Below, piece by piece: positions 32,923-35,661 of a stretch of 64,000 nucleotides of DNA (positions within the stretch are counted from its first letter, which is position 1; the number at the start of each line of letters is the position of its first letter). The stretch lies in the NCBI RefSeq assembly GCF_024700885.2, contig NZ_CP117016.1; one strand, written 5' to 3'. Below the pieces are notes generated by a model, which searched no databases, was not told where the DNA came from, and was given only the letters and a program-made list of their open reading frames with translations. The position numbers were made by a program, and so were the translations under genes. Source of the DNA: Escherichia coli. GTDB lineage: Bacteria > Pseudomonadota > Gammaproteobacteria > Enterobacterales > Enterobacteriaceae.

Positions 32923-33333
32923 TCAGTTCCTATCCTTCCAGTTGCCTTCCTGCAGCCCCCCCTCCCTGCTGTATACCCCAGTACCACAACGCGGGCAGCA
33001 CTTTTCCCCCTCATAATCTTCGTCACACATCACACAAAACCACTTTCTCACCTTCACCGTATAATCCGGAACCGTCATGCCCTGCAGATGCAAACGACGG
33101 GCCTCTTTCTCTGCCGGGTCAAGCCAGGTGCATCGCAGCAGGATTTTCGCAGCAACAGTCATCTGGTCATGTTCAAACCACGGCGGTTGTCCGTCATTTC
33201 CCCGCTTAAGTGTTAACGGACAACCACAGGACACACAGCACAAAACGTCCTGTCGGTTGTGCTTCGCGGCTTCTTTCGCCGTAACAAAATGGCCTTTGCT
33301 GTCATTCGCCATATAGCAGTTCAGAATTCGCAT
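32923..33333 (-). CDS. Uncharacterised zinc-ribbon protein (paralog 1; PWFEH motif and CxxC pairs)
   Basis: 136 aa with AGGAGG RBS upstream; cysteine pairs (CCVSCGC, CVMC…CPRCGTG); paralogous to 34497..34895. Confidence 0.5.
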   Translation of the reverse strand: MRILNCYMANDSKGHFVTAKEAAKHNRQDVLCCVSCGCPLTLKRGNDGQPPWFEHDQMTVAAKILLRCTWLDPAEKEARRLHLQGMTVPDYTVKVRKWFCVMCDEDYEGEKCCPRCGTGVYSREGGLQEGNWKDRN

Positions 33334-33349
33334 ATCTCCTCCTTGTATC

Positions 33350-34495
33350 TTGACAATTGGTTAAAATAACTGTGATTAGATTTGGCAAGGTGTATGCAGC
33401 CCGATCCCTCAAGGGGTTCATAGCCCGTAGCTCAGCGAATGGCGCATACACTGAGCCACTCATCTGAAACCCGAACAGTTGTCAGTACGCCATAACGCAT
33501 TTGCAAGGATGGGTAATCATGAGTCAGCCAGGTTCACTTTGTGTGGATATCGATGTTTCGAAAGCGATACTGGATATTGCCGCCAGCAGCGCTATTGAAC
33601 AATTTTCTGTCGGCAATGACAGTGATGGCTTTGACGCCATCATTGCTGAGTTGAGAATGTACGCCATTGCGCTGGTTTTAATGAAAGCCACTGGAGGACT
33701 TGAAACCGCCATAGTCTGTGCGCTTCAGGCAGAAGGTTTTGAGCTTGCCGTGGTTAACCCCAGACAAGCTCGTGACTTTGCCCGCGCCATGGGATACCTC
33801 GCGAAAACTGATAGTATTGATGCCAGAGTGCTTTCCCAGATGGCTGAGGTTCTCAACCGGCATCCGGAGCGGGAACGCTTTATCAGAGCACTGCCGGATA
33901 CTGAATGTCAGGTTCTCACTGCAATGGTAGTTCGTAGGCGGCAGTTGATTACGATGCTGGTTGCCGAGAGAAACCGGTTGCACCCTGCTCATCCATAGAA
34001 CAGGAAAAGCATTAATATCATCATCAAAGCACTGGAAGACGAGCTTGCGCGACTAGATGCTGACATGAACAGCCATATCCATAGCCACTTCAAAGAGCTT
34101 GCTAAGCGACTGAGCAGTATTAAAGGTGTTGGCACCATGACGGCTGCTGCGCTGCTGGCGGAAGTACCCGAACAGGGTAACCTCTCCAGGCGTGAAATCA
34201 GTGCGCTTGTCGGTATGGTTCCAGTAAACCGGGACTCGGGCACGATGAGAGGGCGACGAACCATCTTTGGCGGCAGGGCTGGTGTGCGAACAGCCCTGTA
34301 CATGGCAGCGCTTGTCGCAACCCGCTTTAACCCGGTAATAAAGGTGTTTTACATGCGACTGCTTGCCGCAGGAAAACCCAAAAAAGTGGCGCTGGTTACC
34401 TGTATACGCAAGCTGCTGACTATCCTGAACGCAATGCTCAGAAAGAACGAAGAATGGAATGAATCGTACCATCACGTTGCTCCATAATTTTTACG
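33350..34495 (+). mobile_element. IS110-family insertion element (boundaries approximate)
   Basis: Contains an IS110-type recombinase ORF with about 170 bp of non-coding sequence upstream; inserted between two paralogous host genes. No terminal inverted repeats are expected for this family. Confidence 0.55.
33519..34487 (+). pseudogene. IS110-family recombinase/transposase interrupted by an in-frame amber codon (TAG at 33996-33998)
   Basis: N-terminal part (MSQPGSLCVDIDVSKAILDIA…, RuvC-like DEDD) and C-terminal part (…[17 protein letters not shown]…[13 protein letters not shown]…) are in the same frame, separated only by one TAG. Confidence 0.65.
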
Positions 34496-34496
34496 T

Positions 34497-34895
34497 TCAA
34501 GACAGTTGCTGAGCTGTCCGGGGAAGACTGAAACCTCCGGTCTGGCAGTGTGTGCAGTACCGCTCCCCATAATAATCGTGGTGACATTGTCTGCAGTGCC
34601 AGCTGGCTTTACGCACCACGGGTAAGGCATCCGGTACGAATTGCTGCAGACGTTTAATCAACTGTATTTCTCTGCGCTCCGGCCTGACATAAGGGCACTG
34701 TTGACCGTGCTCTGTCAGCCTGTCGTCAGTGTGTTCAAACCAGGGACGTTCAGTGTCGTATTGCGGATGGTAACTGAGTGCACTGCCACACAAGTGGCAG
34801 GTGTAGTTAGCATAAGGTGCGGCCTGTGCAGTACGGGCGCCCGTCAGACGTCCGTTGCCATCAAGAGCGATAAAGGATTTTGCGTACATAGTCAT
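34497..34895 (-). CDS. Uncharacterised zinc-ribbon protein (paralog 2)
   Basis: 132 aa; shares the PWFEH motif and C-terminal CxxC…CxxC with paralog 1; RBS present. Confidence 0.5.
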   Translation of the reverse strand: MTMYAKSFIALDGNGRLTGARTAQAAPYANYTCHLCGSALSYHPQYDTERPWFEHTDDRLTEHGQQCPYVRPERREIQLIKRLQQFVPDALPVVRKASWHCRQCHHDYYGERYCTHCQTGGFSLPRTAQQLS

Positions 34896-35055
34896 ATTCC
34901 TCAGCCGCCAGACGACACGCAGGCAACAGCCGTCCCGGTACGGGCAGCGTGGTCAGGTGTGAATAGCGGTTTTCAGTTCAGTCTCAGAAGGGAAAATCAG
35001 TGTGGTCGCTGTGAACGCGTCATCACACTAAGGTCAGATAAGTCGTCTGTCGGGC

Positions 35056-35661
35056 TCAGCCACGACTGCAGCCAAAGTTGCGCTCACCGGTGCAGTGAGC
35101 TTTGGTATGTTCCTTCGCCAGATAGTCAGCACGTTCCAGCACCTGCTGAAAGCCAGTGTCATCATCGCGTTCCAGCCACACCGCCGGCCAGGCCGGAAAA
35201 TGCACCAGCGTGGCATGGCACCCGACATCCACTCCCAGGGCACTGCACCACGCCTGTTTAATCATCCCGGCCAGTGATCCCGGAGCACGGTAATCACCGG
35301 CACGACACCAGGTATCCCGGTTAACCAGCAGCATCAGGTGATAGTGTTTTTTACCTTTGCACTCCCCAAACTCCCGGGCCCAGACGTAATGCAGGGTGGT
35401 GGGATGCACGCGTTTACCTTCCCGATGCTTACGTTTCTGGTAAGCGTCGATTCGGGCTTTCAGGGCATTGATGAAGCGGGATATCACAGCTGCGTCCGTT
35501 GCTGCCGGTACATCCGGGAAACGCAGGTCAACCCGCAATGCCGTCAGGCGGGGATGAACATTCAGTGCGTGCCGCACCGTCTCACGAATACGTTGCTGCC
35601 AGAAGGGGTTGTATTTGTAGGTCATGGTTAAATCTCCGTATGGTTCATACGGAATAGCCAC
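35056..35661 (-). CDS. YagK/YfjJ-family (Inovirus Gp2-like domain) protein
   Basis: 201 aa; family resemblance recalled from CP4-type cryptic prophages; immediately upstream of zinc-ribbon paralog 2 on the same strand. Confidence 0.5.
   Translation of the reverse strand: MAIPYEPYGDLTMTYKYNPFWQQRIRETVRHALNVHPRLTALRVDLRFPDVPAATDAAVISRFINALKARIDAYQKRKHREGKRVHPTTLHYVWAREFGECKGKKHYHLMLLVNRDTWCRAGDYRAPGSLAGMIKQAWCSALGVDVGCHATLVHFPAWPAVWLERDDDTGFQQVLERADYLAKEHTKAHCTGERNFGCSRG

What the first reader, a model, noticed from the sequence alone, without database searches (positions are those of the whole stretch)
32923..35661. Uncharacterised three-gene minus-strand cluster: YagK/YfjJ-like protein plus two paralogous zinc-ribbon proteins
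The two small proteins (136 and 132 aa) share a PWFEH motif and paired CxxC ribbons but are otherwise diverged. They are co-oriented with, and directly downstream of, a YagK/YfjJ-like gene; each has its own RBS. They lie in the variable cargo part of a CP4-type island, a location where anti-phage or addiction modules are frequently found. I cannot assign a function from sequence.
Basis: inference. Interest (0 to 1): 0.55.

Follow-up and report, generated by a model that had tools for sequence, protein, structure and literature searches.

The report
Conserved zinc-finger gene pair beside island nuclease
The three genes are real, but they are conserved backbone genes of a common E. coli genomic island: a replication-type nicking enzyme and two small zinc-binding paralogs of unknown function that sit at the edge of the slot where the island carries its variable defence genes.

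Summary
On the minus strand lie a YagK/YfjJ-family gene (35056-35625), ZnA (34497-34889) and ZnB (32923-33333). The two Zn proteins are paralogs (32% identity, E 1e-16), and both match Pfam DUF7828 + Zn_ribbon_11. A decayed 1167-bp IS110-family element (33344-34510) separates them. Without it the two genes overlap by 13 nt.

The locus is the CP4-44 island of E. coli. About 70% of 5,426 complete E. coli genomes carry the pair. The order [YagK] AlpA [YagK] ZnA ZnB [HUH-less YagK2], then cargo, recurs across Enterobacterales. The variable cargo starts just after the pair (type I R-M, Dsr1, PD-Lambda-4, Dpd, efflux pump). The pair is therefore a conserved flank of the hotspot, not cargo.

Neither Zn protein matches a defence, toxin or NCBIfam model, a phage genome or a solved fold. 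YagK keeps invariant HxH and YxxK motifs, so it is a Rep-like HUH nuclease.

My best reading is inferred, not shown. ZnA and ZnB each bind two zinc ions, have no catalytic domain, and act as nucleic-acid-binding accessory factors of the island's AlpA/YagK module.

These are known but uncharacterised families, so interest is modest.

The parts
35056..35625 (-). YagK/YfjJ-family ('inovirus Gp2 family') gene, 189 aa; Rep-like HUH nuclease candidate. The maximal ORF runs to 35661.
   Evidence: ORF. PGAP CDS in the 100%-identical SLK172 record. Pfam YagK_YfjJ_C 1.3e-47 and REP_ORF2-G2P 6e-5. H94-x-H96 and Y168-x-x-K171 are invariant in 23 family members including K-12 YfjJ. The best PDB sequence hit is a viral replication-associated protein aligned on the HxH motif, E 0.12.
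35762..35789 (-). Candidate sigma-70 promoter upstream of the YagK-like gene (TTTACA-16-GAAAAT).
   Evidence: Consensus scan only. The number of sites does not exceed the shuffled controls, so this evidence is weak.
34497..34889 (-). ZnA, the conserved 'A-type' double zinc-finger protein, 130 aa (132 aa from the upstream ATG at 34895). The IS insertion has altered its last residues.
   Evidence: Pfam DUF7828 1e-31 + Zn_ribbon_11 3e-9. The REL606 C-terminus ...TTQEEICEF is replaced here by ...TAQQLS. AF2 model pLDDT 87.9.
33344..34510 (+). Decayed IS110-family insertion sequence, 1167 bp, with a CT core on both sides and an internal stop in the transposase. It splits the ZnA/ZnB junction 10 nt upstream of the ZnB start codon.
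   Evidence: Alignment to the IS-free REL606 allele. PGAP annotates 'IS110 family transposase, internal stop'. It sits at this site in 645 of 5,426 genomes.
33334..33346 (-). Shine-Dalgarno region of ZnB (AAGGAGGAG), preserved across the IS junction.
   Evidence: Sequence reading and comparison with REL606, which has CAGGAGGAAAT-ATG.
32923..33333 (-). ZnB, the faster-evolving 'B-type' paralog, 136 aa, intact.
   Evidence: Pfam DUF7828 2e-30 + Zn_ribbon_11 6e-18. 32% identical to ZnA, E 1e-16. Only a few residues differ from the REL606 ZnB sequence.
37348..37554 (+). AlpA-family regulator of the same island backbone. In other genera it lies directly upstream of ZnA on the same strand; here it is on the opposite strand, 1.7 kb from the YagK-like gene.
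   Evidence: PGAP annotation in SLK172. An AlpA homolog lies upstream of ZnA in every related locus with enough upstream sequence.

Best explanation
This is part of the conserved backbone of a P4-integrase/AlpA-type ('CP4-like') genomic island, here CP4-44 of E. coli. The ancestral unit is one co-directional gene string: a YagK/YfjJ-family HUH (Rep-like) nuclease, then two translationally coupled paralogs, ZnA and ZnB. In most genera the regulator AlpA is in the same string. The string ends at the island's variable cargo slot.

Each Zn protein is a small structural zinc protein with two metal sites and no catalytic domain. Site 1 is a CoiA_N-like finger (C31, C34, H53, C65). Site 2 is a C4 zinc ribbon (C99, C102, C112, C115).

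The most likely role is inferred, not shown. The two proteins act as nucleic-acid-binding accessory or specificity factors for the island's own life-cycle machinery, meaning AlpA-controlled excision, replication or mobilisation started by the YagK nickase. The conserved A paralog would contact a conserved partner. The fast-evolving B paralog would contact something variable.

In this window an old, now dead IS110-family element has inserted into the 13-nt overlap. It uncoupled ZnB from ZnA and rewrote the last residues of ZnA. Both reading frames remain intact.
For: Shown directly:
- Identity of the locus and its annotation.
- Paralogy and Pfam membership.
- Invariant Cys/His ligands across 52 members.
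- The IS-free allele has overlapping genes.
- The IS-free pair is intact (>=80% coverage) in 2,987 complete E. coli genomes and partly matched in 3,784 of 5,426. The YagK-ZnA adjacency is present in 3,488.
- 35 species-level loci across Enterobacterales show the recurrent order GTPase< ... [YagK>] AlpA> [YagK>] ZnA> ZnB> [YagK2>] then cargo. The same order occurs in Citrobacter and on a Klebsiella plasmid.
- An AlpA homolog is present upstream in every locus with enough upstream sequence. By my count, a YagK-family gene lies within a few kb in about 26 of 28 such loci.
- The genes downstream of the pair differ from locus to locus and are often defence systems. A P4-type integrase lies beyond the cargo in L011.
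- HxH and YxxK are invariant in YagK, with weak Rep-like hits.
- ZnA and ZnB pairwise identities are correlated (rho 0.54), with ZnA at 63% mean identity and ZnB at 46%.
- The family is absent from phage genomes and is found in only 32 of 72,556 plasmid records.

Inferred: zinc binding, nucleic-acid binding, and partnership with YagK/AlpA.
Against: - No experiment or characterised homolog ties DUF7828/Zn_ribbon_11 to any activity, and no paper mentions either family.
- The AF2 model of a ZnA-linker-ZnB fusion gave pTM 0.41, so there is no confident heterodimer.
- K-12 CP4-57 has alpA-yfjI-yfjJ without the Zn pair, so the pair is not essential to all CP4-type islands.
- ZnB is missing or frameshifted in about a third of species-level loci.
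- AlpA and ZnA divergence are barely correlated (rho 0.12), which allows modular exchange.
- E. coli B keeps the pair after losing the rest of the island. That does not fit a role serving only the island machinery.
Confidence: 0.45

Rival explanations
1. The Zn pair, with or without YagK, is itself an anti-phage defence or abortive-infection module.
For: The pair lies next to a defence hotspot. Type I R-M, Dsr1, PD-Lambda-4 and a type II REase follow it in other genera, and a dpd cluster follows it in Citrobacter. The equivalent position after yfjJ in K-12 holds abpAB and rnlAB. ZnB evolves fast. E. coli B retains the pair alone. A CoiA-domain protein was reported as a defence gene in Vassallo et al. 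2022 (PMC9519451).
Against: Neither Zn protein has a real PADLOC hit; the best is E 0.09. Neither has an effector domain such as a nuclease, NADase, protease or pore. Their position and sequence are conserved across genera while the neighbouring cargo varies. The CoiA similarity is limited to the small N-terminal zinc finger, and the nuclease domain is absent.
Confidence: 0.15
2. The Zn pair is a toxin-antitoxin or addiction module that stabilises the island.
For: It is a two-gene unit of small proteins with a 13-nt overlap. It survives in E. coli B after the rest of the island was deleted. The island already carries another TA system, CbtA/CbeA.
Against: The two proteins are paralogs with the same fold and the same ligand set, whereas toxin and antitoxin are normally unrelated (established knowledge). 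No toxin or antitoxin family matches either one. ZnB is frameshifted or lost while ZnA persists in several species, and ZnA occurs alone in others, with no sign that either is lethal alone. Here the IS uncouples the two genes in 645 genomes.
Confidence: 0.05
3. The Zn proteins are transcription factors or RNA-polymerase-binding modulators that work with AlpA, in the manner of small zinc-ribbon RNAP-associated proteins such as Rpb9/TFIIS.
For: A family profile hits RNA polymerase II subunit Rpb9 with E 1.2e-3. The ungapped alignment runs over 77 residues from the first CxxC to the second ribbon. In most genera ZnA directly follows the AlpA regulator on the same strand.
Confidence: 0.15
4. The genes are decaying relics with no current function in this strain.
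For: The island here has lost its integrase and is riddled with IS debris. An IS separates ZnB from its upstream partner and probably from its promoter. No outward promoter was found in the IS end.
Against: Both frames are intact and only a few residues differ from the IS-free allele. All metal ligands are conserved. The pair is retained in thousands of genomes.
Confidence: 0.1

Closest known systems
Pfam DUF7828 (PF25165) + Zn_ribbon_11 (PF11682, formerly DUF3279). PGAP calls these 'putative zinc ribbon protein'; UniProt uses the name 'Ybl85'.
   Same: Both window proteins are full-length members (E 1e-30 for DUF7828, 1e-9 to 1e-18 for Zn_ribbon_11). The closest AlphaFold DB structures are exactly these proteins.
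   Different: There is no difference: this is the family. It has no assigned function and no literature.
YagK/YfjJ of the E. coli K-12 cryptic prophages CP4-6 and CP4-57 ('inovirus Gp2 family'), and HUH rolling-circle Rep proteins.
   Same: The window gene matches YagK_YfjJ_C at 1e-47. It shares the invariant HxH and YxxK motifs with K-12 YfjJ. The HxH region aligns with the motif II region of a viral Rep.
   Different: The similarity to characterised Rep/gpII proteins is weak (6e-5 Pfam, 0.12 PDB). No nicking activity or origin has been shown for any YagK-family protein. In K-12 CP4-57, yfjJ is followed directly by defence cargo, not by the Zn pair.
N-terminal zinc finger of the competence protein CoiA (Pfam CoiA_N). 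[quoted passage not shown]
   Same: The pattern CxxC ... (W)F-x-H ... C at the start of DUF7828 resembles CoiA_N. CoiA_N hits reach 5e-4 in 2 of 52 members and <=0.1 in 8 of 52.
   Different: ZnA and ZnB lack the CoiA nuclease domain and C-terminal region. They carry a C4 zinc ribbon instead.
Cargo hotspots of P4-like satellites and other integrative islands, where conserved backbone genes flank a slot of variable defence genes.
   Same: The conserved ZnA-ZnB (and YagK2/DUF2913) lie on one side of a slot that holds different defence or fitness cargo in different hosts, and a P4-type integrase was seen on the other side in one locus (L011).
   Different: The backbone genes here (AlpA, YagK, ZnA/ZnB, YeeP-type GTPase, DUF932, antirestriction, RadC, CbtA/CbeA) are not those of P4. 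The comparison to P4 hotspots comes from memory and was not tested here.

Membership tests
DUF7828 / Zn_ribbon_11 'putative zinc ribbon protein' family | Significant match to both Pfam models over their full length | tested here: met
   ZnB: 2.1e-30 and 5.7e-18. ZnA: 1.2e-31 and 3.3e-9. All 52 aligned members match both models.
DUF7828 / Zn_ribbon_11 'putative zinc ribbon protein' family | Conserved metal-ligand pattern CxxC...F-x-H...C plus CxxC-x9-CxxC | tested here: met
   C31, C34, F51, H53, C99, C102, C112 and C115 are invariant, and C65 is >=90% conserved, in 52 sequences. Zinc binding itself was not tested.
YagK/YfjJ (inovirus Gp2-type, HUH superfamily) | Match to YagK_YfjJ_C, with an HUH motif and a catalytic Tyr motif | tested here: met
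   1.3e-47. H94, H96, Y168 and K171 are invariant in 23 members including K-12 YfjJ.
YagK/YfjJ (inovirus Gp2-type, HUH superfamily) | Site-specific ssDNA nicking and joining at an origin | not testable with these tools
   No origin-like hairpin stood out in the repeat scan. This needs biochemistry.
Known anti-phage defence systems (PADLOC-DB v2) | A protein matches a defence-system model | tested here: not met
   ZnA and YagK have no hit. ZnB has only PDC-S64 at E 0.093.
Known anti-phage defence systems (PADLOC-DB v2) | The genes occupy the variable slot of the island | tested here: not met
   The pair holds the same position next to AlpA/YagK across genera, while the genes downstream of it vary.
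Known anti-phage defence systems (PADLOC-DB v2) | Confers phage resistance when expressed | not testable with these tools
   Requires phage-challenge assays.
Type II toxin-antitoxin module | Two small, tightly linked co-transcribed genes | tested here: met
   13-nt overlap in the IS-free allele and in many genera.
Type II toxin-antitoxin module | One partner belongs to a toxin family and the other to an unrelated antitoxin or DNA-binding family | tested here: not met
   The partners are paralogs, and there are no toxin or antitoxin family hits.
CoiA competence nuclease family | CoiA_N zinc finger | tested here: inconclusive
   E 0.02 for ZnB. The best hit is 5.2e-4, with 2 of 52 members <=1e-3.
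CoiA competence nuclease family | PD-(D/E)XK nuclease domain | tested here: not met
   There is no such Pfam hit, and a 130-aa protein fully covered by DUF7828 + Zn_ribbon_11 has no room for it.
Rpb9/TFIIS-type double zinc-ribbon RNAP subunits | Sequence and fold similarity over both ribbons | tested here: not met
IS91/Helitron-type HUH transposases with an attached zinc-finger domain | Zinc domain homologous to the IS91 transposase zinc finger | tested here: not met
   No IS91-type zinc-finger family appears among the Pfam hits listed up to E 10. The analogy of HUH plus zinc finger comes from memory only.
IS110 family (the inserted element) | IS110-type transposase, no terminal inverted repeats, CT core dinucleotide flanking both ends | tested here: met
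   PGAP annotates an 'IS110 family (RNA-guided) transposase, internal stop'. CT lies on both sides, and a 2-bp overlap appears in the alignment to the empty site.

The most novel reading that the evidence does not exclude
YagK (an HUH nickase) and the ZnA/ZnB zinc-finger pair, with the HUH-less YagK2 paralog where it is present, form an unrecognised DNA-processing module. This module drives rolling-circle replication or mobilisation of CP4-type islands, or even one-ended capture and exchange of the defence cargo that always begins right after them. ZnB would be the fast-evolving specificity subunit.
Probability: 0.1. Interest if true: 0.65.

Novelty: new member of a known kind. Interest (0 to 1): 0.3.

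Why it matters
CP4-type islands occur in most E. coli and carry adhesins, toxin-antitoxin systems and, in the slot next to these genes, many defence systems. How the islands replicate, move and swap cargo is unknown. The backbone string of YagK (HUH nuclease) and ZnA/ZnB, with AlpA in most genera, is the obvious candidate machinery. Showing what the zinc-finger pair does would assign a function to two Pfam families of unknown function present in thousands of genomes. It could also explain how a common defence hotspot is maintained. As it stands, the window holds one ordinary copy of that backbone, disrupted by an IS.

Tried and rejected
- **Defence, NCBIfam and PHROG libraries:** no hits for ZnA or ZnB.
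- **Literature:** searches for DUF7828, PF25165, Zn_ribbon_11, PF11682 and DUF3279 returned nothing. The two 'ybl85' occurrences were in an unrelated paper, and 'putative zinc ribbon protein' returned nothing.
- **Rpb9 profile hit (E 1.2e-3):** rejected as homology because structure does not support it.
- **Heterodimer test:** an AF2 model of a ZnA-(GGGGS)6-ZnB fusion, built on paired and unpaired alignments, gave pTM 0.41. No coordinates were available to inspect, so the result is inconclusive.
- **Fusions as Rosetta-stone evidence:** the long family members are mostly one-off ZnA/ZnB deletion chimeras. One 238-aa protein (P0139) is a tandem two-copy form. This is weak evidence.
- **Rfam scan of 32500-37600:** no RNA family hit.
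- **Repeat and hairpin scan for an origin-like element near YagK/ZnA:** nothing stood out.
- **Promoter scan:** the number of sites does not exceed the shuffled controls.
- **Phage genomes:** no homolog.
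Full report
**1. What is in the sequence**

- **YagK-like gene.** It is a clear YagK/YfjJ-family member: Pfam YagK_YfjJ_C at 1.3e-47, with a weaker REP_ORF2-G2P hit at 6e-5. The GTG at 35661 is only the maximal ORF. The start PGAP annotates in the 100%-identical SLK172 record maps to window 35625, and a GGAG lies upstream of it.
- **Two small proteins.** Each matches DUF7828 (about 1e-30) followed by Zn_ribbon_11 (6e-18 and 3e-9). They are 32% identical to each other, E 1e-16. The 132-aa protein most likely starts two codons later, at MYAKSF, the N-terminus shared by the whole A-type subfamily.
- **Motifs.** The PWFEH motif and the paired CxxC motifs are real. In a 52-sequence alignment C31, C34, F51, H53, C99, C102, C112 and C115 are invariant and C65 is nearly so. 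This implies two zinc sites per protein: a C2HC finger and a C4 ribbon.

**2. The IS and the ancestral arrangement**

The window matches E. coli chromosomes at 100% identity. The locus is the CP4-44-type island between the cob genes/tRNA-Asn and flu (Ag43)...cbtA/cbeA.

Aligning the window to E. coli B REL606 shows that 33344-34510 is a 1167-bp insertion with a CT dinucleotide on both sides. PGAP annotates it as an IS110-family transposase with an internal stop.

In the empty allele ZnA and ZnB overlap by 13 nt, so they are a translationally coupled pair. The IS landed 10 nt upstream of the ZnB ATG. It kept the ZnB Shine-Dalgarno sequence and replaced the ZnA C-terminus ...TTQEEICEF with ...TAQQLS.

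645 of 5,426 complete E. coli genomes carry the IS at this site. 2,987 genomes carry the intact IS-free pair, and 3,784 (70%) have at least part of it, with a median of two places per genome. The YagK-ZnA adjacency is present in 3,488 genomes.

**3. Family and distribution**

The family is small and confined to Enterobacterales.

- A word-indexed search gave 338 hits.
- An exhaustive search of 1.84 billion representatives found 241 clusters at 50% identity.
- There were 35 loci among the 100,044 species-representative genomes. They come from Enterobacteriaceae, Yersiniaceae, Hafniaceae, Budviciaceae and Erwiniaceae. A few mislabelled MAGs also appear, which I take to be contamination.
- No phage genome encodes a homolog, and only 32 of 72,556 plasmid records do.

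There are two subfamilies. The A type is conserved (mean pairwise identity 63%). The B type evolves faster (46%). Their divergences are correlated (rho 0.54, descriptive only).

**4. Neighbourhood**

I called ORFs in all fetched loci and clustered them. This gives a recurrent order: DUF932< GTPase (YeeP/YfjP type)< X< [YagK>] AlpA> [200-aa protein>] [YagK>] ZnA> ZnB> [YagK2>] [DUF2913>], then variable genes. Pfam-annotated Citrobacter contigs and a PGAP-annotated Klebsiella plasmid show the same order.

- Every locus with enough upstream sequence has AlpA. By my count, about 26 of 28 such loci have a YagK-family gene within a few kb.
- In about a third of loci ZnB is absent or frameshifted while ZnA is kept.
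- The genes just beyond the pair differ from locus to locus. They include type I R-M (several genera), Dsr1, PD-Lambda-4 and a type II REase; a Dpd 7-deazaguanine cluster; a T6SS gene and an autotransporter; and an RND efflux pump.
- In L011 a P4-type integrase closes the slot.
- In K-12 CP4-57 the order is intA, yfjH, alpA, yfjI, yfjJ and then defence cargo (abpAB, rnlAB), with no Zn pair.

The Zn pair is therefore a conserved, though not universal, backbone element at the edge of the cargo/defence hotspot. It is not cargo. In this window the cargo side has been replaced by IS debris and gene fragments, and the integrase is gone.

**5. The YagK partner**

An alignment of 23 YagK-family proteins, including K-12 YfjJ, has invariant R31, D33, E85, H94, H96, W126, Y168 and K171. 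That is an HxH (HUH) motif and a YxxK motif, as in rolling-circle Rep proteins.

The best PDB sequence hit is a viral replication-associated protein aligned on ...E..HxH..., with E 0.12. The downstream YagK2 paralogs seen in many genera have lost both motifs. The window copy has HYH and YLAK and is therefore potentially active.

**6. Structure and remote homology of the Zn proteins**

AF2 with a 52-sequence alignment gives a confident ZnA model (pLDDT 87.9, pTM 0.58). It has small beta-hairpin/zinc-knuckle elements, one longer helix (72-84) and a C-terminal ribbon.

- The start of DUF7828 is distantly related to the N-terminal zinc finger of the competence nuclease CoiA. The best CoiA_N hit is 5e-4, with 2 of 52 members <=1e-3. 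A preprint describes that region of CoiA as a small putative zinc finger ahead of a PD-(D/E)XK domain (10.1101/2024.02.06.579203). ZnA and ZnB have no nuclease domain.
- A profile search of PDB sequences hit Rpb9 at E 1.2e-3. The structural comparison does not support it, so I reject it as homology.
- A ZnA-linker-ZnB fusion model gave pTM 0.41. This neither supports nor excludes a heterodimer.

**7. Mechanism**

These points are shown:
- the two-gene coupled unit;
- conserved metal ligands;
- no catalytic domain;
- a fixed position in a co-directional string with an HUH nuclease and, in most genera, AlpA;
- variable cargo immediately beyond.

These points are inferred. ZnA and ZnB are structural zinc proteins that bind nucleic acid or protein partners. 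They serve the island's own AlpA-controlled excision, replication or mobilisation machinery, most plausibly as accessory or specificity factors for the YagK nickase. The conserved A paralog would contact a conserved partner and the faster-evolving B paralog a variable one.

My confidence that this is conserved island backbone is high. My confidence in the specific mechanism is low. I give 0.45 overall.

The rivals, with my confidence in each, are:
- a defence module (0.15);
- RNAP- or AlpA-linked transcription factors (0.15);
- non-functional relics in this strain (0.1);
- a toxin-antitoxin pair (0.05).

The main facts against my reading are that CP4-57 lacks the pair, that E. coli B keeps the pair alone, and that no interaction or binding evidence exists.

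**8. Comparison with known systems and novelty**

The genes are full members of existing Pfam families and are already annotated by PGAP in thousands of genomes. No paper mentions the two Zn families.

Nothing here defines a new kind of system. The window holds an ordinary, IS-disrupted copy of a known but uncharacterised backbone module.

The most novel reading that remains open is that YagK plus ZnA/ZnB is the unrecognised replication, mobilisation or cargo-capture machinery of CP4-type islands. I give that a probability of about 0.1.

Noticed in passing
window 33344-34510: This IS110-family element (1167 bp, CT core, transposase with an internal stop) sits at exactly this site in 645 of 5,426 complete E. 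coli genomes. The next-closest copies are only about 74% identical. Its left non-coding end contains short matches to its own target (CGCATA, CT|GAGC, and the reverse complements AGCTCAG, GCGAAT) and to its own ends (ACAGTTG / TTGTCA). That is what target- and donor-binding loops of a bridge RNA programmed for the ZnA/ZnB junction would look like. Rfam 15 has no hit there.
   Followed up: partly
L005-L014, L034 and L044, just downstream of ZnB (e.g. L007 10836-11471, L044 9900-10466): A second YagK-family paralog ('inovirus-type Gp2 protein') follows ZnB in many genera. It has lost both the HxH and the YxxK motifs, so it looks like a catalytically dead partner. A DUF2913 protein often follows it.
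   Followed up: partly
L002 (E. coli B REL606) 8727-9523: E. coli B retains only the overlapping ZnA-ZnB pair of this island. YagK through yeeW has been deleted, with the breakpoint 76 bp upstream of ZnA and the other end inside a DUF957 gene fragment.
   Followed up: no
window 35825-36025 (+): A 66-aa protein is encoded divergently from the YagK-like gene. It has an N-terminal CxxC...CxxC zinc ribbon and a hydrophobic C-terminal segment. PGAP calls it a 'zinc-ribbon domain-containing protein', and it gives weak PHROG hits of unknown function. It is unrelated to ZnA and ZnB.
   Followed up: no
window 36440-36589 (-) and 37348-38243 (+): An Hha/YmoA-family gene and an AlpA plus 200-aa-protein pair lie between the YagK-like gene and yfjI. 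Relative to the other genera, the AlpA segment is inverted with respect to YagK-ZnA-ZnB in E. coli CP4-44. The 200-aa protein is a conserved backbone gene with no NCBIfam match.
   Followed up: no
window ~27100-32900: The cargo and integrase side of the island is a graveyard of fragments: IS4, IS3 and ISL3 pseudogenes, and partial phosphotriesterase-related, gamma-glutamyltransferase and cobalamin-biosynthesis genes.
   Followed up: no
L044 (Klebsiella pneumoniae plasmid NZ_CP110517.1) 7750-18375: The same Gp2-AlpA-ZnA-ZnB-Gp2'-DUF2913 backbone sits on an IncFIB/IncHI1B plasmid immediately upstream of an RND efflux operon that PLSDB flags as a resistance gene (adeF-like, 62% identity). This suggests that the island type also carries resistance cargo.
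   Followed up: no
L003, L004, L031 (records titled Collinsella sp., Bacillota bacterium and Chryseobacterium sp.): Loci that look enterobacterial (97% and 84% identical to the E. coli ZnA for L003 and L004) appear in assemblies labelled as unrelated phyla. I take this to be contamination or mis-binning of those assemblies.
   Followed up: no
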